In this document: in pieces, positions 1 through 55,100 of the stretch
Numbering within the stretch: the first letter of the stretch is position 1
Layout of the letters: every line of letters starts with the position of its first letter
NCBI RefSeq assembly: GCF_030028105.1
Contig: NC_092370.1
Coordinates: 119,934,221-119,998,220, forward strand
Length of the DNA: 64,000 nt
DNA from: Mobula birostris
Lineage: Eukaryota
Direction of reading: 5' to 3'
Notes under the pieces: model-generated
The model's input: the letters and a program-made list of their open reading frames with translations, nothing else
Database searches by the model: none
Told to the model about the DNA's origin: nothing
Program-made: the position numbers and the translations under genes

Positions 1-470
1 AAGTCCACAATCAGCTCTTTCGTCTTACTGACGTTGAGTGCTAGGTTGTTGCTGCGGCACCACTCCGCTAGTTGGCATATCTCACTCCTGTACGCCCTCT
101 CGTCTCTATCTGAGATTCTACCAACAATGGTTGTATCATCAGCAAATTTATAGTTCGTATTTGTGCTATGCCTAGCCACACAGTCATGTGTATATAGAGA
201 ATAGAGCAGTGGGCTAAGCTCACATCCTTGTGGTGTACCAGTGTTGATTGTCAGTGAGGAGGATATGTTATCACCAATCCGCACAGACTGTGATCTTCCC
301 ATTAGGAAGTCGAGGATCCAATTGAAGACGGAGGTACAGAGGCTCAGGTTCTGCATCTTCTCAGTCAGAATTGTGGGAGTGATGGTATTAAATGCTGAGC
401 TATAGTCGATGAACAGCATCCTGATGTCGGTGTTTGAAGTTGTCCAGGCGGTCTAAAGCCGTGTGGAGTT
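1..470 (-). mobile_element. Rex1/Babar-like LINE reverse transcriptase fragment
   Basis: Minus strand reads RT-like ...[21 protein letters not shown]. Confidence 0.75.
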
Positions 471-594: not shown

Positions 595-1765
595 AAGTAG
601 GTGCACCAGTGCTTCTATTTCCTCAGGAAGGTAAGGAAAGTCATTATGTCCCCAATTAACCTCAGCAACTTTTACAGATTTGCTAGAGTAAGCATCCTAT
701 CTGGATACATCACAGCTTGGTACGGTAACTCCTCTGCCCAAGACCGCAAAAAATTGCAGAGGGTGGTGAATGCAGCCCAGTCCATCTCGTTAACTTGCCT
801 TCTCTCCAGTGACTGTCCACACTTCTTGCTGCTCAGGAAAGTAGTTCAACATATCTCTCCCACCCTGGGCATTCTTCTTCCCACTTCCGCTGGGCAGAAG
901 ATACAAAAGTTTGAAAACACCTACCAGAGCCTCAAGGACATCTATCCCACTGTAACAAGACTCTTCAAAGGACCTCTTATATGATAAAGCTGAACTCTCT
1001 ATCTCTCATTTTACTCACTTCATACCTATAATGTGTGGTTAAGTGCTGCTCCAATGTCATGTGTAAATTTACTGATGACTCCACTGTTGATTAACAACTC
1101 AAAGGTGATGACAAATTGGCGATAGGAGGGAGATTGGAAATCTGCTTGAGTGATGCCAAAACAACAACCTCTCGCTCAACATCATTAAAACCAAAGAGCT
1201 AATAATCCACTCCGAGAGGAAGAAACCAGAGGTCCATGAGCCAGTCCTCGTTAGAAGATCACAGGTGGAGAGGGTCAGTAGCTTTAAGTTCCTTGGCATA
1301 AACATATTAGTAGATCTGTCTTGGGACCAGCACATGAATGTCATCACAAGGCATGAAAGCGCCTTTACTTTCTTGGATGTTTGTGTAGATTTGATGCATC
1401 ACTAATACTTTGATTGATTTCTATAGATGCAGAGTAGAGAGTTTCCAAACTGGCTGCATCATGGTCTGGTATGAAAATACCAATGCCCAGGGACAGAAAA
1501 AGCTATAGAAAATGGTGGATGTCACTCTTGGTCTGTTTAAGGATAGTTTTTCATAACATTCTATTGTATTTCTTCTTTTCTGTCAATGCCTTTAAGAAAA
1601 CGAATCTTGAGCTATCGTACCATACATGTGCTTTGATAATAAATTTGAACTTGCCTTGTCTTGTCCCTTGCATTTATTTGTTTGCCTGTTCTGCAGGTTC
1701 TCTGTTAACTGTAACAGTATTTTCTGAATTCTGTTATTGTTTTCCTTTAATACTTCCTCAATGTG
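595..1765 (+). mobile_element. Decayed Rex1/Babar-like LINE 3' fragments
   Basis: LSNFYRF..SILSGYITAWYGNSSAQDRKKLQRVVNAA (ORF 601-984), a second RT piece near 1060-1500, and 3' tail sequence. Confidence 0.7.
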
Positions 1766-5600: not shown

Positions 5601-8600
5601 TTTAAGCACATTACAAAATAGTTTATAAATCTGATTTTTTTTTTCATTCCTGAACTGTAAAGGTGCCTATATGGAGGCAGAGATCTTGCCATGAAGATCA
5701 GCCTGTAATCTGGGTAAGTATTACTTTTATTTTTACAAAATTTATATTTGTATTGCCAATATCTTTTAAATCTCTCTTGCTTATTCAAGTGTCGGAATTG
5801 AGCAGGAAGCAGAAAGCTAAAATAAGTCCAAACAGAGAACTTCCTCTGTGTTATGCCGTAAATTGGTCCTCGCAAGTACATCTCCAATTGCCTTTCCGTA
5901 TGACACATTCTGGATCCTAATAGCTTTCCATGTGAAAATATTGCCAACAGTGACAGCCTTAACCCAGCAACCAACCCAGAACTCTATGGGTCAGGCAGCA
6001 TCTGTGGAGGGAAATGGATGGTCAAGGTTTCAGAACGAGACCCTTCAAGATCATCCCTATTATGTTCCTGCTCTGACGAGGGCAAATCCAACTTCCCCAG
6101 GCTCTCCACATTACTGAATTTTGTTATTCTTTATAGTTGAAGCTTTTTAAGACAGTTTCCTAGGTCTTGACCTCCCTCCTGAAATGTGTGTACTTGTATA
6201 TCATTTACCAACTGAGGTTTCTTAAATATGTTTCTTGTGACTTCTCTCTAAACAATGTCCCATTGTTACATAGAAAGCCACATCCCACATATTTCCTTAA
6301 CCATCTTATCATCTTGCCCTGGTTTATGCTACAGTTATTAGAAGTTTTGTAATAACTTCTAATACAATGCAAGTTTTTGCTGTACAGTATTGAACTACCT
6401 TGCTTGCTTTCTGTCTGAGGTAAGTCATAAGCTTCTGTCCTCAAGTTTCTAACCTTCTCAGTGAAGGCTTACAAACTGCTGCAGGGTCTGTTAAATATAT
6501 TCATAAGGCACCAAGGAAGTTAAGACTATAACATTAGTTATTGGATAACTTTATCAACTATCACTCTGTGGTGAATAGTTGTTCCTTGACAAGAGTAATT
6601 GGGCAATTCATTTCTTGGAATTTCACTTCAGTATGGTCTGGAATCAGGAGAAAATAGGTACAGTTTTCAAAAGCTCATCAAATAATCCTCACTGCATCTT
6701 ATCTGGGATACATTTGATTAAACAAATGTTTATTTTTTGCAACAGATTGTATTCTTGTTGAAGGTCCAAGTGAACTGAAAATGTGTCAGTTATTCAACCA
6801 GAGACATTTAATTCCTTAGTTCACACAATGAAAAAGACGATTACATTCCCTGGCATCCTTGCAGTCTAATTAGCTGCACAATTTTAAGTGGGAAGGCAAA
6901 GCTGTCTAACGATGTCTTTTATAAACCTATTGACTTTCACAGCCATCTTGACTACACTTCTCACCTTGTCACCTGTAAGAATGCCATTTCATTTTCTCAG
7001 TTCCTTCGTCTCTGCCACATCTGTTCCCAGGATGAAGCTTTCCTTTCCAGAACATGAGATGTTCTTCAAATAACGGGGTTTCCCTTCCTCCACCCATTGA
7101 TGCTGCCCTCACCTGCATCTCCTCTATCTCACAGACATCTGTACTCACCCCATCTTCCTACTACCCTAACAGGGATAGTGTTCTTTGCCTACCTCCCCAT
7201 GAGCCTCCACATCCAGCACGTCATTCTCTACAACTTGCGGCATCTTCAATGGAATCCTACCACCAACACAGTTTTATCACTCCTTCTCCCCCCCCCCACC
7301 CTCTCTGCTTTCTGCAGGTATTGCTCTCTCCATAACTCTATATTTGTTCTTCCACGCTAATCTCCCTCGTGACACTTTCCCTGCAAGCAGAAGAAATGCT
7401 AAACCTGTCAATTCACCCCCTCCCTTGCCTCTATTCGTGGCCCCAAAGAGTCTTTCCAAGTGAGGCAACACTTCAATTGCAAATCTGTTGAGGTCGTCAA
7501 CTGTATCCGGTGGTCCCAATGCACGTTTTTCTTCTACGTTTGTGAAACCGCTTTGTCAAGCACCTGTGCTCCATCTGCAACAAGTAGAATTTCCTGGTGA
7601 CCAATGATTTTAATTCCAATCTCACTCCCATAAGACTATAAGACCATAAGGCATAGGAGCTGAATTAGGCCATTTGGCCCATTGAGTCTGTTCTGCCACT
7701 TCATCATGGCTGATCCAATTTTCCTCTCAGCCCCAATCTCCTGCCCTCTCCCTGTATCACTTCATGCCCTAACCAATCAAGAACCTATCAACCTCTACCT
7801 TAAATATACATAAAATCTTGGCCTTCACAGCTATCTATGGCAACAAATTCCACAGATTCACCACTCTCTGGCTAAAGAAATTTGTCCTCATCCCTGTTCG
7901 CCCCTCTATTCTGAGGCTGTGTCCTATGGTCTTAGACACACCCATCGTAGGAAACCTCCTCTCCACGTCCACTCTATTGAGGCCTTTCACCATTCAATAG
8001 GTTTCAATGAGGTCACCCCTCATTCTTCTGAGTTCCGGTGAATACAGTCCCAGAGCCGTCAAATGCTCTTCATGTGACTAACCGTTCAAACCTGGAATTG
8101 TTTTCATGAACCTCCTTTGAACCCTCTCCAGTTTCAGCACATTCTAAAGTAAGGGGCTCAAAACTGCTCACAATATTCCAAGTGAGATCTCACCAGTGCT
8201 TTATAAAATCTCAACATTACATCCTTGCTTTTATATTCTAATCCTCTTTTTTTGAAATGTATGCTAACATTGCACTTGCCTTCCTCACCACAGATCAACC
8301 TGCAAATTAACCTTTAGGGAATCCTGCACAAGGACTCCTAAGTCCCTTTGGACCTCAGTATTTGGACCTCAGTTATTTGTATTTTCTCTCTATTTAGAAA
8401 ATAGTCATCCCTTTCATTTCATCTGCCAAAGTGCATGATCATACACTTACTGACACTATTCTATCTGCCATTTCTTTGCCCATTACCCTAATCTGTCTAA
8501 GCTGTTCTGCAGCCTCTCTCCTTCCTCAAGACTTACCTGCTCCTCCACCTATCTTTGTGTCATCCACAAATTTTGCAACAAAGCCATCAATTCCATCATC

Positions 8601-11600
8601 CAAATAATTAACATATAATGTAAAAAGAATCACTAGTTACTGGCAGCCAACCAGAAAAGGCTCCCTTTATTCTCACTTTTTGCCTCCTGCTTGTCAGCCA
8701 CTGCTCTTTTCATGCTAGGATCTTTCCTGTAATACTAAGAGCTCATCGCTTGTTAAGCAGCCTTGTGTGGCACCTCGTCAAAGGCCTTCTGAAGGCCTCC
8801 GATCGGACATGTTGGTTTGTGGCCTACTCTACAGCCCTTATTGAGGCCACTCTCAGGTTGAAGGAGCAACACCTGATATTCCATCTGGGTAGTCTCCAAA
8901 CTGATAGCATAAACATCGATTTCTCCTTCTGGTAATTTTTTCTTCTTCCCTTTTCCCTCTTCTTCTGTTCCCCACTCTGGCTCCCCTCTTAACCTCTTCT
9001 TTTCTCCTTAATTGTCTATTACCTCCACATGATGCCCCTCCTTCCCTTTCTTTCATGGTCCACTCTCCTGTCCCATCAGATTTCTCCTTCTTGAGCCCTT
9101 GACCTTTTCCACCTAATATCTCCCAGTTTCTCACTTCATTCCCCTTCCACCACCCACATGGCTTGTGTTCTTTCCCCTCCCCCCACCTTCTCTTTCTGGA
9201 TCCCTTGTCCTTCTCTTCCAATCCTGATGAAGGGTCTCAGCCCAAAACATCTTCTGTTTATTCCTTTATATAGATGCTGCCTAACCTGCTGAGTTCCTCC
9301 AGCATTTTGTATGTGCTGCTCCAGATACACTTTTTCAAGGCACAAATTAGTATAGAAACATCTACAATAATATGTATTTAGAGAGTCTATCAAATTACTT
9401 CTCAGAAGAGGAATGAGATATTAATTATTGTCAAGTTGAAGAAATAAACAATGGTCTGTGTGATCCTTTTTTATTCATTCATGCCATATGGTATTATTGG
9501 CTGATCAAGCACTTATTGGCCTCCCTGAACTGCCCCGAACTTCAGCAGCTTATTGGGCCAATTCAGAAGGCAGTTGGACTGAGTTATTCATGGATCAGAC
9601 TGGGTAAGGACACCACATGCTTTTTGCTGAAGAATATCAGTCAACATAATGTACAGTACATTGTCCTCCAGGCTGTTTATTTACCATTCCAGATCTATTT
9701 ATTTATTTGAATTAAAATACCCCAGCTGTCCCCAGCAGGAAGTTGAACTGGTGTCTGTAGGTGAATGGTCCAGGTCTTCGCTTCTTAGTCCTGCAGTGTG
9801 CCAACTTTGAATGTGTTCTGGGAGTCAGGAATGATGAGCAGTCTTAATTCTAAGATTTCAGGTTATTTTAGAGTACAAACAAATATACAAATATGAAGCA
9901 AACTAAATAAGGAGCTGAGAAACGATGCTAAGAGGTCTATGGATGTGAAGACAAAGGAACAGAGATGGCACCTCTGAAAAATCCACCACCTAGACAGAGT
10001 AGATGTAGAAAGGATGTTTCCCATGGTGGGGGAGTCTAGGACAAGAGGGTGCAGCCTCGGAATAGAGGGGCATCCATCTAAAACAGAGATGTGGAGAAAC
10101 TTCTTTAACTAGAGAGTGGTGAGTTTGTGGAATTTGTTACCACAGGCAGCTGTGGAGGCCAGATCACTGGGTGCATTTAAGACAGAGCTTGATAGGTTCT
10201 TGGTTGGACACGGCATCAAAGGTTATGGGGAGAAGGCCAGGGAGTGGGGCCGAGGAGGGGAAAACAGGATCATCCATGATTGAATGGTGGAGCAGACTCG
10301 ATGGGCCAAATGGGCTAATTCTGCTCATATGTCTTATAGTCTTTATAGGTGAGATAAGGGAAACTCTTGAAGGATAGACTAATTAATAGGCTACATAATT
10401 AAAACAGTTACATCATGTGAGTAATGTGCTAATACTTAGCCAATGAAAAATGAGAAGGGTGATAAGCCGTTAGTTTAACTGCTATACTGCTTTCTGCCAG
10501 TGAGTGGGGATGAACCACTACATACTGTGAAAAACACATGAGTGTTAAAAAGTACACATCTTATAAAGAGTATTAATAAAACAAAACTGTGGTTTCCAAG
10601 AAATGGGTCTGCAATAACTGGAGCAAAGAGGTAGGACTTGAGCAGAATCTTATTGTAGGAAAGGGAGGAGATAATAGAGGCTGGAGACTTTTAGCACTGG
10701 ATGAAGTAGGAATAAGGGTTTGGAGGAATTAGAGTGCTGGACTAGGTGCCAAAATAGTTCAACAATCAATGGAGTGACAGGTGAAATGAATTTGGTTCTA
10801 CTTAGGCACCAGATACCATCTAAAGGTGGTTTTTCTCTTTAATCATTTAGTAGCTCTTTGTACTCTTTGGCAGAATAGAGGCTGTACTTTCCAATAATAA
10901 TTTACACAATAACTGTACAAAAACTCAAGGTATTTTGGGGAATTCACTGGCTAAGAACAAGTAAGCAAAAATTCTAACTGTATTAATGATGGCAATTACT
11001 TGGTACATTTCATTCAATCTTTACAATGGTGTATTTTAAATCAGGATTACCATGTCATCCTGCTCCACGATTGTGGAGGACAACACTGTGAGGTCTATGA
11101 TTTGGATTCAACACTACCGTTTCCTTGTTCTTTTGATATTTATGTGAAAGAAGCCTTTCGATCTGAAGAGCTCATCAGACCAGTTTTTAGACGGTGAGCA
11201 ATTTTTAAAAATTTATTGATTCTCAGGATTTGGGTATCACTGACCACCCCTACCCATCTAGTGGCCTCTCGTCTCCCTCTCAAGTCTCCCAGTATACTGA
11301 GTGGCTTCCTGAACTAACTCAGAGACCAAAGTAGAGATTCATGGAGGCCAGGCTGGAGATGGACAGTAATTTTCATACCATAGTCCAGGGGTCCCCAGCC
11401 TTTTTACACTGCAGACTGGTTTAATATTGACAATATTCTTGCGGACCGGCTGACCAGAGGTGGGGGGTGGGGGTAGATTCAAGTAGGATTAAACTCGCCT
11501 CAACATGTCTTTTACAGTTAGAGTTGCCAACTTTCTCACTCCCAAATAAGGGACAAAAGTAGCAGTCAAATCCCGGGACACTTTACCCCAGGAAAGACTA

Positions 11601-19299: not shown

Positions 19300-22200
19300 T
19301 GATAGAAACATAGAAAACCTACAGCACAATACAGGCCCTTCGGCCCACAATGCTGTGCCGAACATATACTTACTTAGAAATTACCTAGGGTTACCCATAG
19401 CCCTCTATTTTTCTAAGCTCCATGTACCTATCCAGGAGTCTCTTAAAAGACCCTATCGTATCCACCTCCACCACCATTGCTGGCAGCCCATTCCACACAT
19501 TCTCACCACTTTCTGCATTTAAAAAAAACAACAACTTACCCCTAACATCTCCTTTGTACCTGCTTCCAAGCACCTTAAAACTGTGCCCTCTTTTAGGCAT
19601 TTCAGCCCTGGAAAAAAAGCCTCTGACTATCCACATGATCAATGCCTGTCGTCATCTTATACACCCCTGTCAGGTCAACCCTCATCCTCCACCGCTCCAA
19701 GCAGAAAAGGCGAAGTTCACTCAACCTATCCTCATAAGGCATGCTCCCCAATCCAGGCAACATCCTTGTAAAACCCCTCCGCACCCTTTCTGTATTTTCC
19801 ACATCCTTCCTGTAGTGCGGTGACCAGACCTGAGCACAGTACTCCAAGTGGGGTCTGACCAGGGTCCTATAAAGCTGTAACATTGCTTCTAGGCTCTTGA
19901 ACTCAATCCCATGATTGATGAAGGCCAATGCACCATATACTTTCTTAACCACAGAGTCAACATGCGCAGCAGCCTTGAGGGTCCTATGTACTCAGACCCC
20001 AAAATCCCTCTGATCCTCCACACTGCCAAGAGTCTTACCATTAATACTATATACTGCCATCATATTTGACCTACCAAGATGAACCACTTCACACTTATCT
20101 GGGTTGAACTCCATCTGCCCAGTTTTGCATCCTATTAATGTCCCACTGTAATCTCTGACAGTCCTCCACGCTATCCACAACACCCCCAACCTTTGCGTCA
20201 TCAGCAAATTTACTAATCCATCCCCCCACTTCCTCATCCAGGTCATTTATAAAAATCAAGAAGAGAAGGGGTCCCAGAACAGATCCCTGAGGCACACCAC
20301 TGGTCACAGACCTCCATGCAAAATATGACCTGTCTACAACCACTCTTTACCTTCTGTGTGTAAGCCAATTCTGGATTCACAAAGCAAGGTCCCCTTGGAT
20401 CCCATGCCTCCTTACTTTCTCAATAAGCCTTGCATGGGATACCTTATCAACTGCCTTGCTGAAATCCATATACACTACATCTATTGCTCTAGTTTGATCA
20501 ATGTGTTTAGTCAAATCCTCAAAAAAATTTAATCAGGCTTGTAAGGCATGACCTGCCTTTGACAAAGCCATGCTGACTGCTCCTAATCATATTATGCCTC
20601 TCCACATGTTCATAAATCCTGCCTCTAAGGATCTTTTCCATCAATTTACTAACCACTGAAGTAAGACTCACTGGTCTATAATTTCCTGGGCTATCTCTGC
20701 ACACACTCTTGAATAAGGGAACAACATCTGCAACCCTCCAATCCTCTGGAACCTCTCCTGTCCCCATTGATGATGCAAAGATCAATACCAGAGGCTCAGC
20801 AATCTCCTCCCTCACCTCTCACAGTAGCCTGGGGTACATCTCGTCCGGTGCTGGAGACTTACCCAACTTGATGCTTTCCAAAAGCTTCAGCACGTCCTTT
20901 TTCTTAATGTCTGTATGCTCAAGCTTTTCAATCCGCTGTAAGTCATCCCTACAATCATCAAGATCCTTTTCCATAGTGAATACTGAAGCAAAGTACTCAT
21001 TAAGTATCTCTTCTACCTCCTCCGATTCCATGCACACTTTTCCACTGTCACACTTGGTTGGTCCTATTCTCTCACATCTTATTCCCTTACTCTTCACATA
21101 CTTGTAGAATGCCTTGGAGTTTTCCTTAATCCTGTTTGCCAAGCCCTTCTCATGGCCCCTTCTGGCTCTCCTAATTTCATTCTTAAGCTCCTTCCTGCTA
21201 GGCTTATAGTATTCCAGATCTCTATCATTACCTAGTTTTTTTGAACCTTTCGTAAGCTTTTCTTCTTGACTTGATTTTCAACAGCCTTTGTACACCACGG
21301 TTCCTGTACCCTACCATCCTTTCCCTGTCTCATTGGAACATACCTATGCAGAACGCCACACAAATATCCCCTGAACATTTGCCACATTTCTTGCTGTACA
21401 TTTCCCTGAGAACATCTGTTCCCAATTAATGCTTCCAAGTTCCTGCCTGATGGCTTCATATTTCCCCTTACTCCAATTAAACGCTTTCCTAATTTGTCTG
21501 TTCCTATCTCTCTCCAATGCTATGGTAAAGGAGATAGAGTTGTGATCACTGTCTCCAAAATGCTCTCCCTCTGAGAGATCTGACACCTGACCAGGTTCAT
21601 TTCCCAATACCAGATCAAGTACAGCCTCTCCTCTTGTAGGCTTATCTACATATTGCGTCAGGAAACGTTCCTGAACACACCTAACAAACTCCACCCCATC
21701 TGAACCCCTTGATCTAGGGATATCAATATTTGGGAAATTAAAATCTCTACCATGACAAACCTGTTATTATTATACCTTTCCAGAATCTGTCTCCCTATCT
21801 GGTCCTCGATGTCCCTGTTACTGTTGGGTGGTCTATAAAAACACCCAGTAGAGTTATTGACCCCTTCTTGTTCCTAACTTCCATCCACAGAGTCTCAGTA
21901 GACAATCCCTCCATGACTTCCTCCTCTTCTGCAGCCGTGACACTATCTCTGATCAGCAGTGCCACGCCCCCACCTCTTTTGCCTCCCTCCCTGTCTTTTC
22001 TGAAATATCTAAAGCCTGGCACTGTAAGTAACTATTCCTGCCCCTGAGCCATCCAAGTCTCTGTAACGGCCACAATATCATAGCTCCAAGTACTGATCCA
22101 CGCTCTACGCTCATCAGCTTTGTTCATGATACTTTTTGCATTAAAGTAGACACATCTCAAACCATCGGTCTGAGCGCATCCCTTCTTTATCAGCTGCCTA

Positions 22201-36742: not shown

Positions 36743-39700
36743 AACATAGAACATAGAATAGTACAGCACAGTACAGGCCCTTCGGCCCACAATGTTGTGC
36801 CGACACTCAAACCCTGCCTCCCATATAAGCCCCCACCTTAGATTCCTCCATATACCTGTCTAGTAGTCTCTTAAACTTCACTAGTGTATCTGCCTCCACC
36901 ACTGACTCAGGCAATGCATTCCACGCACCAACCACTCTCTGAGTAAAAAACCTTCCTCTAATATCCCCCTTGAACTTCCCACCCCTTACCTTAAAGCCAT
37001 GTCCTCTTGTATTGAGCAGTGGTGCCCTGGGGAAGAGGCGCTGGTTATCCACTCTATCTATTCCTCTTATTATCTTGTACACCTCTATCATGTCTCCTCT
37101 CATCCTCCTTCTCTCCAAAGAGTAAAGCCCTAGCTCCCTTAATCTCTGATCATAATGCATACTTTCTAAACCAGGCAGCATCCTGGTAAATCTCCTTTGT
37201 ACCTTTTCCAATGCTTCCACATCCTTCCTATAGTGAGGTGACCAGAACTGGACACAGTACTCCAGGTGTGGCCTAACCAGAGTTTTATAGAGCTGCATCA
37301 TTACATCGCGACTCTTAAACTCTATCCCTCGACTTATGAAAGCTAACACCTCATAAGCTTTCTTAACTACCCTATCCACCTGTGAGGCAACTTTCAGGGA
37401 TCTGTGAACATGTACCCTGAGATCCCTCTGCTCCTCCACACTACCAAGTATCTTGCCATTTACTTTGTACTCTGCCTTGGAGTTTGTCCTTCCAAAGTGT
37501 ACCACCTCACACTTCTCCGGGTTGAACTCCATCTGCCACTTCTCAGCCCACTTCTGCATCCCATCAATGTCTCTCTGCAATCTTTGACAATCCTCTACAC
37601 TATCTACAACACCACCAACCTTTGTGTCATCTGCAAACTTGCCAACCCACCCTTCTACCCCTACATCCAGGTCGTTAATAAAAATCACGAAAAGTAGAGG
37701 TCCCAGAACAGATCCTTGTGGGACACCACTAGTCACAATCTTCCAATCTGAATGTACTCCCTCCACCACCACCCTCTGCCTTCTGCAGGCAAGCCAATTC
37801 TGAATCCACCTGGCCAAACTTCCCTGGATCCCATGCCTTCTAACTTTCTGAATAAGCCTACCGTGTGGAACCTTGTCAAATGCCTTACTAAAATCCATAT
37901 AGATCATATCCACTGCACTACCCTCATCTATATGCCTGGTCACCTCCTCAAAGAACTCTATCAGGCTTGGTAGACACGATCTGCCCTTCACAAAGCCATG
38001 CTGACTGTCCCTGATCAGACCATAATTCTCTAAATGCCTATAGATCCTATCTCTAAGAATCTTTTCCAACAGCTTTCCCACCACAGACATAAGGCTCACT
38101 GGTCTATAATTACCTGGACTATCCCTACTACCTTTTTTGAACAAGGGAACAACATTCGCCTCCCTCCAATCCTCCGGTACCATTCCCGTGGACAACGAGG
38201 ACATAAAGATCCTAGCCAGAGGCTCAGCAATCTCTTCTCTCGCCTCGTGGAGCAGCCTGGGGAATATTCCGTCAGGCCCCGGGGACTTATCTGTCCTAAT
38301 GTATTTTAACAACTCCAACATCTGCTCTCCCTTAATATCAACATGCTCCAGAACATCAACCTCACTCATATTGTCCTCACCATCATCAAGTTCCCTCTCA
38401 TTGGTGAATACCGAAGAGAAGTATTCATTGAGGATCTCGCTCACTTCCACAGCCTCCAGGCACATCTTCCCACCTTTATCTCTAATCGGTCCAACCTTCA
38501 CTCCTGTCATCCTTTTTTTCTTCATATAATTGAAGAATGCCTTGGGGTGTTCCTTTACCCTACTCGCCAAGACCTTCTCATGCCCCCTTCTTGCTCTTCT
38601 CAGCCCCTTCTTAAGCTCCTTTCTTGCTTCCCTATATTCCTCAATAGAACCATCTGATCCTTGCTTCCTAAACCTCATGTATGCTGCCTTCTTCCACCTG
38701 ACTAGATTTTCCACCTCACTTGTCACCCATGGTTCCTTCACCCTACCATTCTTTATCTTCCTCACCGGGACAAATTTATCCCTTACATCCCGCAAGAGAT
38801 CTCTAAACATCAACCACATGTCCATAGTACATTTCCCTGCAAAAACATCATCCCAATTCACACCCGCAAGTTCTAGCCTTATAGCCTCATAATTTGCCTT
38901 TCCCCAATTAAGAATTTTGCTGTCCTCTTTGATTCTATCCTCTTCCATGATAATTATAAAGGCCAGGGAGCAGTGGTTACTGTCCCCCAGATGCTCATCC
39001 ACTGAGAGATCTGTGACCTGACCCGGTTCATTACCTAGTACTAGATCTCGTATGGCATTCCCTCTGGTTGGCCTGTCCACATACTGTGACAGGAATCCAT
39101 CCTGGACACTCTTAACAAATTCTGCCCCATCTAAACCCTTGGAACTAATCAGGTGCCAATCAATATTAGGGAAGTTAAAGTCACCCATGATAACAACCCT
39201 GTTATTTTTGCACCTTTCCAAAATCTGCCTCCCAATCTGCTCCTCTGTATCTCTGCTGCTACCAGGGGGCCTATAGAATACCCCCAGTAGAGTAACTGCT
39301 CCCTTCCTGTTCCTGACTTCCACCCATATTGACTCAAAAGAGGATCCTGCTACATTACCCACCCTTTCTGTAGCTGTAATAGTATCCCTGACCAGTAATG
39401 CCACCCCCCCTCCCCTTTTTCTGCCCTCTCTATCCCTTTTAAAGCACTGAAATCCAGGAATATTGAGAATCCATTCCTGCCCTGGTGCCAGCCAAGTCTC
39501 TGTAATGGCCACTACATCATAATTCCATGTATGTATCCAAGCTCTCAGTTCATCATCTTTGTTCCTGATGCTTCTTGCATTGAGGTACACACATTTCAGT
39601 CCTTCTACCTTACTGTCTTTACACCCTTTATTCTGCTTCTCTTTCCTCAAAGCCTCTCTGTATGTTAGATCTGGCTTTACTCCATGCACTTCTTTCACTG

Positions 39701-39960: not shown

Positions 39961-39979
39961 AGCAAAATTGAATCACAGT

Positions 39980-40073
39980 CCTGCCGAAGGATTTTGGCCC
40001 GAAACGTCGACTGTACTTTTTTCCATAGATGCTGCCTAGCCTGCTGAGTTCCTCCAGCATTTTGTGGGTGTTG
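39980..40073 (+). mobile_element. 94-bp Penelope pLTR fragment starting at a hammerhead-like motif
   Basis: Flanked by direct repeat CACAGT (39974-39979, 40074-40079); same family as 9220-9325. Confidence 0.75.
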
Positions 40074-46115: not shown

Positions 46116-49100
46116 CTGAAAGCAAAGCACGAAAGGAACTTGTTATTGACCTGCATTGCTATAGTACTTGGTATATCTGTTAGGCATCTCCCATTACTTT
46201 ATAACTAATCAAGTACTTTGCAGTGTAGCCGTTGTTGCAGTATACAAAGCACAGCTGCTAATTTACACACAGCAAGCTCCTGCAAAGGCATCATAAGACA
46301 ACCGATCTGTTTGCATTGGTTGAATCAAGGAAGCAGCTGGAGACCCCAGTTATACATTCTACTGAAACAACCAAACATCTAACTTTTAACAATGTTGCAT
46401 TCTATGTTGCACTCAAAGTGATCGTCCAAATTTTTGGACAAGGACCCGTCCTACTTAGGGTCATGGCGGCCATTAGCTGCTAACAAAGTATCCTGAGGTT
46501 TCATTATTCATTGAACAGTAAAGCCAGCATTGACGTTCCTTTTCCGACTACCCTGCTTCTGGCATGGAGTCATTTTCTTGAAGAAATGCAGTCCTTCCGG
46601 TAAAGATGTTGTTGGTGAATGAATTGCAGGATTTTCAACCCAGGGATGATGAAAGAGCAGTGACACATTACAAAGCCAGGATGGCATGGGACTTGGGAGA
46701 CTGCAGATGCCGGGATCTGGAGCAAAGGTTGGGGGGGGGGGGGGGGGGAGGGCGGGGAAGCAAACTGCTGAAGAACTCAGCAGGTCTGGCAGCATCTCTG
46801 GAGGGAAAAGGATAGTCCATGTTTCAAGTCAGGAATGAGTTTCAGCAGGGGGAATCCTGGTGCAGGGTCTTGACCTGAAAGACAGACTATCCTTTTGCTT
46901 CCACATATGCTGCCCACTTGCTGAGTTTCTCCAGCAGGTTGTTCTTGGGTTGAGACTTGGGAACCTACACAGGATCGTGCACACGTGTGCCTGCTACCCT
47001 TGCATTTCTTTGTGGTAGATGTTATAGATTTGGGAAGTGCTGCTGGAGTGGCCTAGGAAGCCGCTGCAGTTCATCTTGTGGATGGTATACAGTACAACCA
47101 CTGTGTGCTGGTAGTGCAGGGAATCAACATTTCAGGTGGTAGGTGCCATGCCAAACATGTGACTTCTTTATTTCCTAATGCTGAAAATGTAGTAGATCCA
47201 AGAATACTGGACCTGTGGATGTCAAAACGATGCATTTGAATGCATTGACACATTGCTGGGTCCCAATTGCCTCAAGATCTTCTATTCCGAAATTTAAGAC
47301 AACAGTTGGAAATTAACTATTATGGTGCAAGGATAATGATCTAAACCAGTGAAGCCTTGCTCTACCTTCCAAAAGAGGATGTGGCAATGTCTGCAGAACT
47401 GGAGTGTGTCCCCATATTGTTCTTTCTTTGGGTAGCACCTCCCAAGTTTAAAGTACATCTTCTTCCAGTCCAAGTGCCCCTTCTCAGATAAAATGAGACG
47501 CTTGCGAATCTACAGTAGACATAAAAATGACAAATAAATAGGAGTCGAGTCCATTCGTAAGCAATATCCAAACGAAGACGTTTTAATTTGAAGCTTGGCA
47601 GTGACTTGGCTTGCTGTACCTGGCGCTCTGTGAAGTGGTATTGGCATAGTTTCTTCCACAGAAGCCTGTCCTCACTCAGCACTTGCAAGGTGGGGGACAC
47701 CTGACCAAGGTTGACAATATCTCGCCCATCAGACAACCTCTCCATGATGTTCAATTGCAGGCACATGGGGAGGTCGGTGAGGGTCACTCCTGTATTCGCA
47801 GGCTGTGAAACAAAAAAGGTTTAAGACACCCAGCCTCAGTTCTCAAGTACAACATTACAGACACCATATCCTATGATTGCCAATTCACACGAGCTCCCAG
47901 CATACCACTAACACAGCATACAGCACAGGAACAAGCTGTTCAGCTCAGTGTCTCAGTACTCCCGGTAAGTATCACAAATGGGGGGGTGGCAGGAGAGAAG
48001 ACCCCAGTGACTCTCTCAGGGGTTTTAAAACTGTTCCCTTTCAGGTCTTACGTCCGATGCCTCGTGGCATCCATACCACATGATGATGCAGCCAGTCAGG
48101 ACACAAAGAATCTAAATGATAAAGGGCCCTGACATTTGAAAGATGCAGCACGCCTGTAAAGCTTTAACACAGATCCTCGTTCTGTTCTAAATGCTTGGAT
48201 TTAAAATGGAAATTTGATACCTATGAATAAAAAAAATGTAGATATTTTACAAATATAAACCTATAAAACTTCTGCGTGGATACGGTTTTTATAGCAGGGA
48301 AATTTTTCTATCAAATCAATGGTAGATTATTAAAATTGGAGGATAAGCAATGGGAGTACAGAGATTTTGAATAACATTGGCTCTGCAGAAAATTGGAGTT
48401 GCCCGAGGGCTGTACAGGCCAAAACACTGGGTGTACTTAAGGCAGAGATTGACAGGTTCTTGGTTAGCAAGAACAGAAAGGTTCAGGGAGAAGGCAGGAG
48501 AATGGGATTTAAGTTATCCATGATTGAGCAGCAGAGAAGACAAGGTGGCCAAATGGCCCAATTCTGCTCCCCTGTGTTATGGTCTTATTGTTGGGTAGAC
48601 TAGTGGCTGGACCTCCAGAGTTCCTGCTTGCCCACCACTTACCCTGATGATCCGAATGTTGTTCAGCTGCTGCTGCCAGTGAAGAATGACCTCCATTCTG
48701 TAGACCCAGGTGTTTATATTTCCTACCAGGACACACTTCCCTACACCTTTGACCAGTGCACAAATGGTGGCGTACAGACTATTGAGCAGCTCCTTAATTA
48801 GCCGGATATCACGTTGGTCTTCTATCACTGAAGTGGAAAAATAATTCTTAATATTAGAAAACAGTGCATCACGAAAAATGTTATCATTGTTGGGGTTGCA
48901 GGAATAAACTGCAAGGCTGGAGATGGCTACAGAAACAGGAAGCAGCAACGATGCTAGCTTCAGAATAAGTCGAGATGAATATCTTGCCAAAAATGGGAAG
49001 TACTTGCAATAAATAATCCTGGCATCATTTTAAGAAGTATTCCTTTAGAACAGGGGGTTTCAAACTTTTTTTTATGCCAAGGAGTCTGTGGACCCCAGGT

Positions 49101-52100
49101 TGGGAACTCCTGCTTTAGAACTACCTTTGTGGACTTCTCAGACGAACTATTAATCAAGACCCATTAAGGACCAAGACGACATTTCTTCAGCCAGTAGGTC
49201 AAGTTTCTGGAATTCTCCAGTTATTAAGAATATTCACAACTGAGATGGATCAAAAGCAACACTCACAAAATGGAGGAACTCAGGCCATGCAAATGAACAA
49301 ACAGTTGATGTTTCGGGCTCTGAACCTTCAAGACTAGAAAGAAGGGGGAAGGTGCCAGAATAAAAAGGTGGAGAGAGGCGAAGAATAGCTAGAATGTGAT
49401 AGGTGAAACCAGGTGGGTGGGAATCTGATAAAAGAGGACAAGGGACCATAGGAGAATGGGAAGGAGGGGCACCAAGGAAAGGTAACTGGCAGATGAGAAG
49501 AGGTATGAGGCCAGAGTGGAAAATAGAAGAGAGTAGAGGGAGAGAGAATAAACAAAGAAATCTCCTTCCTGGAAGGAGAAACTGATATTCATGCTATCAG
49601 GTTGGATGTAACCCAGACGGAATACAAGGTGTTGCTTCTCCACCTCAAGGGTGCCACGATGAAGCCACAAAAGGAGGCCATGGTCAGGATGGGAATTAAA
49701 GTATTGGGCCACTGGAAATTTCCACTTTTGGCAGATGGAGCGTAGGTGCTTGATGGAAGCTATCCCCCAATTTACGATGGGTCTCACCATGGTAGGGGGC
49801 TACATCAGGAGCACTGGATACAAGAGACAACCCAGGCAGATTTGTATGTGAATTACTGCCTCACCTGTTAGGACTGCATGGAGCCCCCAATGGAAATGAG
49901 GGAGGTGGTGAATGGGCAGGTGTAAAACTTAGGCCACTTGCAGGGATGTGCTGGGAGGGATGAATGGACAATGGAATCATGGAGGGGGTGATCCCTGCAG
50001 AAAGTGTAAAGTGGCTGGGGGGGACAGGTAAAGATGTGTTTAGTGGTAGGATCCCTTCGAAGATGGTGAAAGTCGTGGAGAATGATGTGCTTATCAAATG
50101 GATCAATTCACTGAGCATCCAAGAATCAAATGATAAAGGTCCTGACAAAATATTAACATTATTCCTCCCCACAGATTTTGCCCAAGGTACTGAGCAATTT
50201 TTTTTTTTATTGTTAAGGACAGATAGAACAGTAAAAATTGATTTCAGGCTTGCTGAATGCCAAAACGTTCAGTAAGATTTTCATTATATGACCAGCTACT
50301 ATTTATGTTTGGAAACAATTCAATTAAATCCTATCCTTCTCTTAATATTTAGAACTTGTCCTTTAAAAAGGATCTAGTGGTTGCTGATGTTTCTCTCATC
50401 AATGCAGAGGTTACAGTTTGCTCCTTATCCACAGCTGGATGTAACAACCATATAGCAATTTTCCAATGTCTTCTTCATCCCTTAACTGTACAAGAATGCA
50501 AGCAGACACCATTCATGGTAGTTTGCCATTGTTAGAATAATGGCCAAAACTGACTGGAATTTAGAAGAATGAGTGGCAATTTCACAAAGATGCTGACAGT
50601 GGTATTCCCCTCAGATTGTCTGTGGGCAAGGGACTTCCTGTTTGGGACTTATCAGCAGAATTTAAGAGATGTATGTGTTCATTTCAAACCTGTATACTGA
50701 CTTCTATTCTTGATATCCCATTAGAATCAAGTTCAGTTCATGCTGGAGATTAGCTTTAGCAAATATCCATTTATTACTACAAATATATGAAAGAATAAAC
50801 AGCTCCCTAGTTTTATGGAATTCTATTCCACATCCCACTTTGCTCCATCATTTTCTCCTATCCTCTCCATTGCGTGTATCCAGATTTTCCTTAATCCCAT
50901 CACATATGTTCACCTCAATCTCTTCTCAAGGGAGCAAGTTCTATCTCGGGAAGAAGTTTCTCTCAACTGGATCAATAAGAATTTTCTTTATATTCATGAG
51001 CTCTTGCCCCACTTTCATGCACATTTTCTCTATACATCAATTTCATAAATCTTAAATACTCACGTCTATCCTCAGCCTTCTTTCCAGAGTGACAAACCCC
51101 AGCCTTTTCCGTCTTTCTCACACCTGAGATTTCCATAACATCCTAGTAAATATACATTATGATTTCTTTTGCATGCATTTGACCCAGTGCCTCTACATCC
51201 TGTTGATAAAACCCAGGTCAGACGTTTTATCAACAGGATGTAAAGGCACTGGGTCAGATGCAAAAAAAAAAAAAAAAAGAAAAAAATCATAACATATTTA
51301 CTGAGATGTTATGGAAATCTTAGTCAAGTTGTGGGCAAGACTGAAAAGGCTGGGGCTTGTCAGTCTGGAAAGAAGGCCGAGGATGGACATGAGGATTTAA
51401 GATTATGAAAGTGTGATTATTTAAGTACAGAGAAAATGTGCATGAAAGTGGGGCAAAAGCTCATGAACATAAAGAAAGTTTTTACTGATACAATTTCTCC
51501 TTTGACAAGATATAAAGGTGAATGCAAGTGATGAGATTAAGGATAATCTGGATACGGGAATAGAGAGGAATAGGAGAAAATGATGCAATGAAGTGGAGTG
51601 TGGAGTAGAATTCCATAAAGCTAGGGAGCTGTTTTATTTTTTGCTTCCATTCTTACCTTTCTGCACAACTTTCTCCAGAATGTTCATGTAGTTTTTCTGG
51701 GCAATCCCACTGAGGGACGTGAGCTGGGATTTCGCAATGAGCTCCAGCAACTGCAAATGGAAAATAAATTGGTGTCACTCTAGCAAGGCAAAACCACACA
51801 GCTGTTCTAATATGGCATCTTGGGTCACACCACCTAATGGCTACAGGTTTCCAAAGCTTTTAATCCGAAAGGACACCAGTCAGGTGCCCAGAGACGGGGT
51901 CAAGGAAGGGGTAAAGTGAGTATCATTAATTCTTGGCTGCTTATGAAGATTAAGCAAATGGTACAATCTGTACTAGTTCTTAATTACTATTGAACAAGCG
52001 GAAAGCAAAGCCAAGCCAAACTCCAAAACACTTGCCTTAATCAGACCACATCCTTATTATAGCATAAGATGGCAATGTCATTTCAGCTTACAAGCCGGAC

Positions 52101-55100
52101 AGACTGTATTTTGTCCAAATTAAATGTACACCTTGGACATACTTCAAGATGGTTATAAATCAAGAAAAGTCCACACAACACTCCAATAAATGAAGTATGG
52201 GGGAGTGAATGAAGCACTGAATTGGCCAACCGAGGCAATGTTCTCACAAGTGAACACAAATTATTTTGCACTTTTTCAACAAAGCATGGAGTTCCAACCA
52301 AGTTAGCCAGCACTACACATTTTTTCATTGTCTGCTTCCACCCATCATCCACCATCCTGTGTCCCAACTCTACCTCTCCCCTTCCTGCTCTATCTGCCCA
52401 TCATTTTCCACGGTTCCCCATCACCCATGGGGATGTCTCACCACCCCACCCAGACCCAATACTGGCTGTCTCCGCTTCCCACTCTTAAACTGATGCAGAA
52501 TCTTGACTTAAAACATTGACGATTCCTACTTCCCCAACAGACTTTGTCCATCAGCTGTTCCTCCAGAAGTTTGAGAACATGAAGGACAGCTTCTGCCCTG
52601 CTGTTCCAAGACTCTCAAATAGACCTCTTCAACGAAGATGAGATCTTGATCTCAATCCAACTCATAGTGGCCTTTGCACTTTCTTTGTAATGAATGACAG
52701 AAGATTTACAAGGATATTGCCAGGACAGGAAGGCTCAAGTTGTAGGCAGAGGTTGGCCAGGGTAGGTCTTTATTTGTTGAAACTTGGGAGAAATGTTTAA
52801 TTCTGAAAGATATTGATAAGCTGGATGATAACAGTCTTTTCCCCAAGGTAGGGGAGTCTCAAACCTAGGCACAATGGTTCAGGGTGAGAGGGCAAAGAAT
52901 TCAAACGAACCCGAGGAGCTGCTTTGGTGCATCCTGCCCCCTTCCTAACAGTGTTGTGAATAAGCTGCCTGAGAAAGTGGTAGATTTAAGAACCCACTTG
53001 GGTATGCACGTGGAGGTGAAGGGCTTGAAAGGATATGGGTCAAAGAGCTTGTATCTGCTGTATTGCTCTATAATATTTTGAGTTCTGCTATTGCACTTAT
53101 CTTTTGTACTACCTTGAAATACTTGGTTGGAATGATTTGTATCTACGCCATGCAAAGCAATTTGTTCAATGCATTTCAGTACGTGATAATAATAAACCAA
53201 TTAATAGTTACTTGTTCAAGCATCATCTGATCATTAGCCTCTGTCCCTGGAGTTTACCATGCACAAACAGGCTGCTCATTTCCCTCCAACAGTGACAGGA
53301 AAGCAGTGCGTGGACTCTCTGGGATGTCATCGCATCGTGCGAAGTTGTTCGTCAAAACAAGTTCCTTCTTTACAAGGACAAAGCATAACACCACCACTCC
53401 AGTGGACCCACTGCACTATCGAGGCTGCAATACAGCCATCAGTGAATTTGACTCTTGTTTCAACATTTTGCAATTAGTCACAAGACATGGGGTTGGGAGC
53501 ATAGCAGGAATTCCAAACAGTTCCACTTCCATCAGCACAGCAGCATACTGGATACTGTAATCAGCTGCTGGCCTTGCTGCTTGTCACCATGACTTGATTT
53601 GTGATGAGCAGTCAGGGTTGCTGTTGGTATGACTCAGGGTAACAAAGCCCTTCATCAGTCGAAGGGTAACCAGCACAAACATTAGCTTCAAGGCTTTGGG
53701 TACCGTTAACATTTACAAAAAATCATGGACAGGCAGTAAATAACTGTCCTGAGAGTCTTTTATCCATCCTCATAACATGTGAGTAAACCATTCATCTCAT
53801 ACAGCTTTCCAAGCATTCCCATACCCCACTCATTTCCCCTGTAATCTCTTCTCCCCACATTCTCGTCAACTCCTTGAAGCAGCCAGACTTCACAAAATGA
53901 CTAAGTATTTCATGGGATTACAAGCTGCTAGTTAGTAAAACATCTCATTTAAAGGAAAAGCAGAAGTACTTAATCTTCAACCTAGCCCCTACGACAGAAC
54001 TAGTCCAGTGTTTTTGTTTGCATGCGCCTCCTCCTACTCATTCCAATCGCAGAAACTTCATTTCCTTCCCCAATCCACGTACCAGTGGCTTTCTCTTAGA
54101 TGGAACACTCTTCGCCTCAGCCCTCCCTGTGGGAACAAGCTCCACCACCACAGCCCCCCCTCCCAACTCTCCAGGGAAAAGATCTCTTGCAAATTCCAAT
54201 TAGACTTATCAGCAACCTCTTGTTCAGCTTTACCACAAGTGGAAATCTCCACTGTGCCAGTACCTTAACAAACACCCTTCAAGATCTCAATCAGATCAGC
54301 TTTCAGCCTTCCAGAGATTACAGCCCGAGCCCATACAATCATCCCTGATCAGTGAGACCTCGACACAAAACAGTAGACGCTTTAGAAAAATGAGTACTTC
54401 ACTATAGAATTGATGCAGTTCACAATGCCACTTTGCTTTGCATCCGACAAGCAGATCCAGTTACAAAGCAGTACATTTCCATTCTGCCTCAGGAGATGGA
54501 ATTACCGCTTCTACTGCCAGTTTAATCAAGAATTAATAGTGATAACGAGTTAGTGCCATGACGCAAAATGGAAATAATAAATGAGGAGGTAAAGTGAAGG
54601 GCAGAAATTCAGTTCAGTAGAAATGCAAGACCCACCTACCCGGACAACATAATTGAATCTTCGTGTGTCCCGAATGGCACTGGAGAAGTCCAGGCGGTTA
54701 AAGGCCTCACCCAGGGTACAATATCCGTGGCGCTAAAAGAAACGAAGAGTCTGTCAGAGCCAGCAATGGGACAGAGGCTTTGACCATCCATGCAGCCATC
54801 CACATAATACAACACAGCATTACTCACCTCCTTTGTGCTTCCTTTGTGAACTGAGATCCACGTATCATGGTGAAAATCTGAGAGCAAAGATAAAGATCGT
54901 GGACTTTATTATACTGCAGTAATTGCCAAAGCAAATGCAGTTTGGTTTCCAAAACAATGAATGTGATTATTGTAGTTTTATTTAAATTTTGAAGTGGAAT
55001 TTTATTTAGGTGCCCCCCCCCCCAAACATGAGAATAAAATGTTACAGTAGGATTTGTGTAAATATGGCTGACCCAGACTCAGTGGGCTGAAGGGCCCCTT

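What the first reader, a model, noticed from the sequence alone, without database searches (positions are those of the whole stretch)
50794..51638. ~840-nt foldback hairpin starting ~17 nt from the FBXO32 exon 5 splice donor
Two ~415-nt arms are reverse complements around an 11-nt loop, roughly 80-85% identical by eye, with indels and an A-run in one arm. The outer end lies ~17 nt into intron 5 from the donor GT at 51656-51655. Part of the arm resembles a very old CR1 3' end ([10 protein letters not shown]), but the arms appear closer to each other than to other CR1 copies here. That suggests a local foldback duplication or arm-to-arm conversion rather than two independent insertions. Inference: the pre-mRNA forms a long dsRNA stem that could be an ADAR substrate, an endo-siRNA source, or a modulator of exon 5 splicing (94 nt, frameshifting if skipped). 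Long near-palindromes are usually unstable, so its persistence is notable.
Basis: partly seen in the sequence, partly recalled or inferred. Interest (0 to 1): 0.7.

Follow-up and report, generated by a model that had tools for sequence, protein, structure and literature searches.

The report
Decaying intronic foldback of dead retrotransposon
An 850-base hairpin next to exon 5 of a muscle-wasting gene is real, but it looks like a one-off mirror-image duplication of a long-dead retrotransposon scrap that is eroding like ordinary intron DNA, with only a faint hint of a regulatory role.

Summary
The foldback is real: arms 50790-51212 and 51224-51642, 11-nt loop, 336 of 390 aligned columns identical, starting 15-19 nt into intron 5 of an F-box gene read as FBXO32. 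Each whole arm is a heavily decayed CR1-type LINE 3' fragment, and the two lie head to head. They share lesions, so one was copied from the other (or long homogenised) after the element died. Relative D has the orthologous hairpin, so it predates that split (about 9% divergence). In D only that one contig lies on the left arm, which argues against a multi-copy foldback transposon. Decay looks neutral: G.U versus A.C mismatches are 19:17, the arm diverges about as fast as the flank, most polarisable changes unpair the stem, and D's contig lacks about 170 nt of one arm. Exon 5 is spliced canonically in the one RNA-type run laid, and the donor is not predicted to be buried. Incidental ADAR editing is likely by analogy but untested. 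One weak lead remains: a 64-nt stretch invariant in D just outside the stem can pair with the 3' end of exon 5 (post hoc p 0.01-0.14). Verdict: ordinary kind, low interest.

The parts
50790..51212 (-). Distal arm of the foldback; decayed CR1-type LINE 3' fragment (end of ORF2 plus 3' part), LINE sense on the minus strand, its 3' end pointing outward
   Evidence: arm limits; frameshift-aware score 48 against an intact window CR1 peptide, 0 of 150 shuffles as high, opposite strand 27; one contig of relative D covers it
51213..51223 (.). 11-nt unpaired spacer at the fold-back centre
51224..51642 (+). Donor-proximal arm; the same decayed CR1-type fragment, LINE sense on the plus strand (antisense to the gene)
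   Evidence: score 58, 0 of 150 shuffles, opposite strand 28; D has 51224-51252 and 51497-51642, with 71 nt where the window has 244
51249..51287 (-). A-run of the proximal arm; on the pre-mRNA a 26-nt pyrimidine tract followed by CAG (51251-51249), a candidate cryptic acceptor. The tract is mostly looped out and the AG is buried in a 33-bp helix. Use not shown
51657..51750 (-). Exon 5 (94 nt) of the F-box gene read as FBXO32; donor GT at 51656-51655
   Evidence: spliced contig ends match exon 6 and exon 4
50713..50776 (-). 64 nt just outside the distal arm with no listed difference in relative D; 50739-50763 can pair with the last 23 nt of exon 5 (about 25% of the ensemble). Weak lead only
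48643..48827 (-). Exon 6 (185 nt); intron 5 is therefore 51656-48828 (2829 nt) and holds both arms
54640..54732 (-). Exon 4 (93 nt)

Best explanation
A CR1-type LINE 3' fragment sat in intron 5 beside the exon 5 donor and decayed past easy recognition. A single fold-back or template-switch event then copied about 420 nt of it in inverted orientation, leaving an 11-nt loop. This happened somewhat before the split from relative D (arm-to-arm distance 0.15 against 0.08-0.10 between the species). Since then both arms have mutated independently, which made the DNA palindrome progressively harmless. The pre-mRNA very likely still forms a long imperfect duplex inside intron 5 and is probably edited by ADAR as a bystander, then removed with the intron. 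It has no selected function, and the stem stops short of the donor because a stem covering the donor would not have been tolerated. Shown: the repeat, its LINE ancestry, shared lesions, orthology and a large gap in D, no strand bias, canonical exon 5 junctions. Inferred: the copying mechanism, which arm is the original, editing, and the reason for the boundary.
For: LINE ancestry of both arms: 0 of 150 shuffles reach either score. Shared departures from CR1 copies 37 vs 10, plus a shared deletion of about 29 nt and a shared insertion in the ORF2 frame. No other copy in the window. In D the summed depth over 50856-51254 is 9.8-10.1, the depth of the single orthologous contig, while a small CR1 remnant at 50542-50590 piles up to 2684 in the same run (table 2). 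G.U 19 vs A.C 17. Mismatches are spread evenly along the stem, p 0.82. Arm 33-43 of 463 against flank 35 of 333 differences to D, p 0.10-0.63. Of the 3 arm substitutions shown, 2 are changes in the window's lineage that break a pair; D indels at 50863 and 51034 restore the state of the partner arm. One D contig has 71 nt where the window has 244 (table 8). Exon 5 contig at depth 826 with 0 other letters and loose ends matching exons 6 and 4. Template switching makes hairpins in one step (10.1101/2023.04.19.537475, passages); fold-back leaves an unduplicated spacer (PMC3907307, passages); palindromic repeats and CR1 3' pairs are hyper-edited in frog and chicken (PMC5625713, passages).
Against: Only 40 of 107 substitution rows and 12 of 14 indel rows were shown, and only 3 substitution rows fall in the arms, so covariation could not be counted. 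At 50820 both window arms agree while C and D differ in the left arm; this could be a concerted change. The D gap rests on one contig of one run, and the tool dropped a joint row at the A-run as likely false. The outer stem next to the donor survives in D. The 64-nt run without a listed D difference (scan p 0.010 under uniform rates) overlaps a segment complementary to exon 5. The outer arm ends fall near the CR1 3' terminus in the forced alignment, which a late random duplication does not predict. The template switches I read about in print are much shorter (stems of 30-55 nt) and the fold-back spacers much longer (766 bp and up).
Confidence: 0.72

Rival explanations
1. The palindrome was born at insertion: a truncated CR1 cDNA folded back and was copied into a head-to-head dimer. 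Arm-to-arm gene conversion then kept the arms alike for a long time, so they share lesions, until divergence stopped it. Still non-functional.
For: Both outer ends lie near the CR1 3' terminus and both inner ends at one ORF2 position (alignment; not tested statistically). No CR1 continuation was found beyond the left arm (233 of 600 and 402 of 600 shuffles as good). Site 50820 could be a concerted change.
Against: It needs a near-perfect 420-bp palindrome with an 11-nt loop to last while drifting more than 50% from other CR1 copies, and such repeats are the unstable kind (PMC10164571, PMC7999016, passages). No identity gradient from the loop outward: 58, 56, 58, 55, 53, 56 of 65. Two substitutions and two indels of the window's lineage remain unconverted.
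Confidence: 0.12
2. A selected RNA structure. The long stem brings 50739-50763 next to the 3' end of exon 5, forming an exon-intron duplex like an editing-complementary sequence, and so tunes editing or exon 5 splicing (skipping gives an immediate stop). It may also hide the cryptic acceptor at 51249.
For: The MFE of 50650-51790 pairs 51682-51660 with 50739-50763 at about 0.2-0.27 probability. Duplex -20.7 kcal/mol, matched by 105 of 3922 window 64-mers. No listed D difference in 50713-50776, scan p 0.010. D keeps the outer stem. The cryptic CAG is fully paired.
Against: Complementarity by alignment is not significant: 150 of 2000 and 718 of 5000 shuffles, and 1277 of 4184 window 60-mers score as well. 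All these tests were chosen after seeing the data, and D differences are clustered, so p 0.010 is too generous. No strand bias and no arm constraint. The exon 5 mRNA contig has 0 other letters (contigs drop minority variants). Both arms are in one intron, unlike loop-out skipping (PMC13019027, abstract). Donor +1 to +6 is on average 0.69 unpaired with both arms against 0.41 without the distal arm.
Confidence: 0.08
3. A member of a multi-copy foldback transposon or MITE family whose arms were captured from CR1.
For: The window does hold another palindromic repeat that is multi-copy (46761-46941, with partial copies near 5978, 9272 and 39979). A second short contig matches 50767-50804 in C (38 nt, 7 differences).
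Against: No second copy in the window. In D one contig's depth covers the left arm at an 80% threshold while a known repeat piles up. No target-site duplication is visible at the ends (by eye). No similar stretch among earlier notes.
Confidence: 0.05
4. A hairpin-RNA gene that yields endo-siRNAs or a microRNA from the excised intron.
For: Predicted continuous helices of 53, 33, 21 and 20 bp (G.U included) are long enough for processing. Template-switch hairpins in introns have given rise to miRNAs (10.1101/2023.04.19.537475, passages).
Against: No Rfam family at gathering threshold in the window (0 matches). The 53-bp and 20-21-bp helices use 51343-51477, inside the stretch that D's contig lacks. 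Vertebrate somatic endo-siRNA output from long hairpins is low (recalled).
Confidence: 0.03

Closest known systems
Inverted duplicates / long inverted repeats of vertebrate genomes (PMC5398296, passages)
   Same: Two reverse-complement arms of 10-10,000 nt with a spacer under 1,000 nt, at 80% or more matches, overlapping a repeat; hundreds of thousands to millions per genome by that paper's loose definition.
   Different: This one is at the long-arm, short-spacer end, which that paper finds disfavoured, and it is intronic rather than intergenic.
Template-switch hairpins (10.1101/2023.04.19.537475, passages)
   Same: One-step creation of a hairpin with a short loop, often in introns, mostly neutral raw material.
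   Different: Their miRNA-like stems are 30-55 nt; this stem is about 420 nt and no pre-duplication state is in hand.
Fold-back inverted duplications with a single-copy spacer (PMC3907307, passages)
   Same: An inverted copy joined to the original through an unduplicated loop.
   Different: Those are megabase rearrangements with spacers of 766 bp to 70 kb and terminal deletions; here the flanks are intact and the loop is 11 nt.
Hyper-edited repeat duplexes: chicken CR1 3' pairs and the palindromic Harbinger repeat of frog (PMC5625713, passages)
   Same: A long imperfect duplex of CR1 3' sequence in a transcript; it should work like these as an ADAR substrate.
   Different: It is a single-locus self-duplication, not two insertions or a palindromic family; editing here was not observed.
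Inverted Alu pairs causing loop-out exon skipping (PMC13019027, abstract and outline)
   Same: Intronic inverted retroelement pair near an exon.
   Different: Those pairs flank the exon; here both arms lie downstream of exon 5 in one intron, so the exon is not looped out.
Editing-complementary sequences of glutamate receptor pre-mRNAs (recalled; PMC3553965 seen as search listing only)
   Same: Only the weak lead: an intronic segment able to pair with an exon's 3' end near the donor.
   Different: No editing seen, marginal complementarity, conservation seen in one relative only.

Membership tests
Long inverted duplicate | Reverse-complement arms at 80% or more identity with a short spacer | tested here: met
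   336 of 390 columns, 11-nt spacer
CR1-type LINE remnant | Colinear similarity to the ORF2 C-terminus of CR1-type copies, on one strand | tested here: met
   Scores 48 and 58 against shuffle maxima 42 and 44, 0 of 150 each. DNA-level profile hits alone are weak, E 0.18 and 4.5. The label CR1 is recalled; Pfam gave no family
CR1-type LINE remnant | 3' terminal short tandem repeat | tested here: inconclusive
   Arm ends align near the 3' end of window copies in a forced global alignment; not tested against shuffles
Foldback transposon / MITE family | Many dispersed copies | tested here: not met
   None in the window; single-contig depth over the left arm in relative D at an 80% threshold, with a positive control repeat. 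No whole genome was available
Foldback transposon / MITE family | Target-site duplication | tested here: inconclusive
   None visible by eye; an old one could have decayed
Conserved functional RNA structure | Bias to pair-preserving changes and constraint above flank | tested here: not met
   G.U 19 vs A.C 17; arm versus flank p 0.10-0.63; large gap in D
Conserved functional RNA structure | Compensatory base changes across species | tested here: inconclusive
   Only 3 arm substitutions were shown and no partner positions
ADAR hyper-editing substrate | Long duplex in a transcribed region | tested here: met
   Predicted fold, 214 paired adenosines; the gene is transcribed and spliced in run X6
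ADAR hyper-editing substrate | Clustered A-to-G in RNA against DNA of the same animal | not testable with these tools
   All 24 listed runs are contigs, none raw reads
Loop-out exon skipping pair | Arms on both sides of the exon | tested here: not met
   Both arms lie within intron 5, 51656-48828
Editing-complementary sequence | Significant, conserved exon-intron complementarity | tested here: inconclusive
   p 0.03-0.3 by four complementarity controls; invariant run in one relative, p 0.010
miRNA or endo-siRNA locus | Discrete or phased 21-23-nt reads | not testable with these tools
   No small-RNA data; Rfam 0 matches

The most novel reading that the evidence does not exclude
The accidental foldback has been co-opted as a scaffold. 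Its outer stem, kept in relative D, brings a conserved 64-nt intronic segment lying 900 nt away onto the last 23 nt of exon 5 and hides a poison acceptor created by its own A-run. ADAR or helicase activity could then set exon 5 inclusion or recode the exon's end, giving this lineage an RNA-structure control of atrogin-1 output.
Probability: 0.08. Interest if true: 0.65.

Novelty: new member of a known kind. Interest (0 to 1): 0.2.

Why it matters
As best explained it matters little: it is a clear, datable example of how a long intronic duplex arises in one step from dead LINE sequence and then erodes, and a ready reporter for ADAR activity in a poorly studied lineage. It would matter if the weak lead held, because skipping exon 5 gives an immediate stop, so a structure that tunes this exon would directly set the level of a muscle-atrophy ubiquitin ligase (role from PMC8147613, passages).

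Tried and rejected
Whole-genome copy count: no genome is held for this window. Rfam: 0 matches in 64,000 bases. DNA similarity of the arms to CR1 copies: no informative blastn hit; pairwise z -0.9 to 4.2 over 18 comparisons; profile E 0.18 and 4.5, with a reversed-window control reaching E 0.36. Only the protein-level test was clear. CR1 sequence continuing left of the distal arm, which would have identified the original arm: not supported (107 of 1000 shuffles; 233 and 402 of 600). An inverted remnant of exon 5 at 50739-50765 as part of the original duplication: not significant. More identity near the loop as a sign of conversion: not seen. No RNA holder is listed on record as RNA; X6 is a guess by the tool, though it holds spliced junctions. 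Holes, which are not evidence: in X6 the intronic contigs stop at 50812 and nothing covers 50813-51656, and three RNA-guess runs of one study hold 0.53-0.59 of the words. That would fit hyper-editing or poor copying of a duplex, but the DNA run of relative B also shows no orthologous cover and C is fragmentary, so a filter or low depth explains holes as well. No joint to the cryptic acceptor was listed, but that place has no cover. ESM Atlas on exon 6: no hit at 0.9 or more. Earlier findings: three look-ups returned nothing. Literature: 9 searches. The two on FBXO32 listed 3 and 4 papers, none about such a hairpin by title or abstract start; one of them (PMC8147613) was read in passages and does not describe it. 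The library lacks most subscription papers; no supplements were opened. Assembly artefact: rejected, since relative D's independent contig carries the left arm, the loop and both ends of the right arm.

Full report
Observation. The hairpin is there as described. The repeat finder returns five nested inverted pairs between 50790 and 51641 around an 11-nt loop, and a window-wide self-comparison finds it as one of two local palindromes among 24 repeat pairs. Aligning 50790-51212 with the reverse complement of 51224-51642 gives 336 of 390 identical columns, 62 gap columns and K2P 0.155. It folds far better than shuffles on both strands: -526.8 kcal/mol on the pre-mRNA strand and -508.9 on the other, 0 of 20 shuffles as good in each case. 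The longest exactly repeated word is 28 nt.

Gene context. Minus-strand exons lie at 54877-54828, 54732-54640, 51750-51657, 48827-48643, 47802-47620 and 47509-47366, with a start-like ATG at 63815. Exon 7 encodes an F-box-like domain. The name FBXO32 is recalled from the peptides and exon sizes, not given by a tool. Intron 5 is 2829 nt and holds both arms. The stem starts 15-19 nt after the donor, with a predicted 7-bp extension to +7. Skipping exon 5 gives a stop directly after exon 4.

What the arms are made of. By DNA the arms hardly resemble the window's LINE copies. A frameshift-aware alignment to the intact 147-residue ORF2 C-terminal peptide of the window copy at 37343 gives scores of 48 and 58, above all 150 shuffles each and only on the expected strand. 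In a multiple alignment the similarity runs colinearly from the loop to the outer end. So each arm is a CR1-type 3' fragment (label recalled) and the two lie head to head. They are 40-47% identical to five window copies over aligned columns, share a deletion of about 29 nt and an insertion inside the reading frame, and at columns invariant in at least 4 copies depart together 37 times and singly 10 times. A different subfamily could explain shared substitutions, but hardly shared frame lesions. One arm was therefore copied from the other, or the two were homogenised, after the element had died.

Relatives. The run search listed 24 runs, all contigs, from five coded organisms. I laid 4 of them on 50400-52100 at an 80% threshold: X6 (same sample, RNA by guess), X8 (B), X14 (C) and X16 (D). 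In D one 10,526-nt contig covers 50400-51252 with 78 other letters and 51497-52080 with 42. The hairpin is thus orthologous and older than the split: Jukes-Cantor 0.153 between arms against 0.098 and 0.076 between species. Between the two pieces D has 71 letters where the window has 244, so at least about 170 nt of the proximal arm are missing. This rests on one contig, and the tool skipped 51253-51296 and dropped one joint row there as likely false. D's match resumes at 51497, exactly where the window's proximal arm lacks 29 nt present in the distal arm, which suggests that loss is specific to the window's lineage (inference).

Copy number. Summed depth in D across 50856-51254 is 9.8-10.1, the depth of that single contig. 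A small CR1 remnant at 50542-50590 reaches 2684 in D, 2479 in C and 3752 in B (table 2). A multi-copy family at 80% or more identity would be expected to pile up in the same way. The window's other palindrome, 46761-46941, does have partial copies at three other places; this one has none. No whole genome was available, and B and most of C show holes that prove nothing.

Tests for selection on the RNA structure. Transition mismatches read as G.U on the pre-mRNA 19 times and as A.C 17 times, p 0.87. Mismatches are evenly spread, p 0.82. Against D the left arm with the loop differs at 33-43 of 463 sites, depending on how many flank differences are hidden under the repeat pile-up, and the flank at 35 of 333; p 0.10-0.63. 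Only 40 of 107 substitution rows were shown, 3 of them in the arms. At 50811 and 50841 both relatives carry the base of the window's partner arm, so the window's lineage broke these pairs. At 50820 both window arms agree and the relatives' left arm differs, which is unresolved. Of 6 arm indels shown for D, those at 50863 and 51034 restore the partner arm's state, 51635 roughly so, and three do not. This is the pattern of independent decay, on thin counts.

Splicing and editing. In X6 a contig at depth 826 spans exon 5 with 0 other letters, and loose ends at both borders match exon 6 and exon 4. Canonical inclusion is therefore the form seen; contigs drop minority forms. The donor is not buried: positions +1 to +6 average 0.69 unpaired with both arms and 0.41 without the distal arm. 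Both arms are on one side of the exon, unlike loop-out pairs (PMC13019027, abstract). Editing could not be tested. By analogy with chicken CR1 pairs and the frog's palindromic repeat (PMC5625713, passages), a duplex with 214 paired adenosines is a likely bystander substrate.

Persistence. In yeast, lowering inverted Alu identity from 100% to 94, 86 and 75% cuts rearrangements about 15-, 58- and 1087-fold (PMC10164571, passages; general principle also in PMC7999016, passages). At 86% with nine gaps the element is long past its dangerous phase. Only its early survival needs luck, and vertebrate genomes hold very many inverted duplicates (PMC5398296, passages).

Remaining leads. First, the A-run reads on the pre-mRNA as a 26-nt pyrimidine tract before a CAG at 51251-51249. 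Seventeen of the 26 tract positions are at least 0.70 unpaired, the AG is fully paired, and reading on from it meets a stop after 18 codons. No use is shown. Second, D has no listed difference in 50713-50776 (scan p 0.010 under uniform rates), and 50739-50763 pairs with the last 23 nt of exon 5 in the MFE at about 25% probability. The duplex is matched by 105 of 3922 window 64-mers, but by alignment score by 150 of 2000 and 718 of 5000 shuffles and 1277 of 4184 window 60-mers. These tests were chosen after seeing the data and D's differences are clustered, so I give co-option 0.08.

Mechanism and verdict. Most likely (0.72) a late, single fold-back or template-switch duplication of a dead LINE scrap, now decaying neutrally, with probable incidental editing. 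Template switching and fold-back are known routes to such structures, though at other size scales (10.1101/2023.04.19.537475 and PMC3907307, passages). The main rival on origin (0.12) is a palindromic insertion followed by long conversion. It works like an edited repeat duplex and is a member of the broad class of long inverted duplicates; it fails the tests for a foldback transposon family, a conserved RNA structure and a loop-out pair. I found no paper on this hairpin in the two FBXO32 searches of a library that lacks most subscription papers. New member of a known kind; interest 0.2.

Noticed in passing
window 46761-46941: A second palindrome (about 180 nt, 72% by blastn) downstream of exon 8, with partial copies near 5978-6047, 9272-9310 and 39979-40065; it looks like a common MITE-type repeat.
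   Followed up: partly
window 51249-51287, minus strand: The A-run forms a long pyrimidine tract plus CAG on the pre-mRNA, with donor-like sites at 51123 and 51063; a potential poison exon whose AG is buried in the stem.
   Followed up: partly
window 50713-50776: 64 nt without a listed difference in relative D, partly complementary to the 3' end of exon 5.
   Followed up: partly
window 36746-39598 and 19302-22159, minus strand: Two long CR1-type copies about 70% identical over 2.9 kb; the first has an intact 178-residue ORF2 C-terminus.
   Followed up: partly
window 50542-50596: A tiny separate CR1-type remnant on the plus strand that draws most of the 104-145 contigs laid in each DNA run; used as the multi-copy control.
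   Followed up: yes
window 50436 and 50534: Relative D has two 24-nt insertions about 100 nt apart in the left flank (table 4).
   Followed up: no
window 3-452 minus strand and 601-981 plus strand: Open frames resembling the reverse transcriptase and C-terminal parts of another LINE family (recalled resemblance).
   Followed up: no
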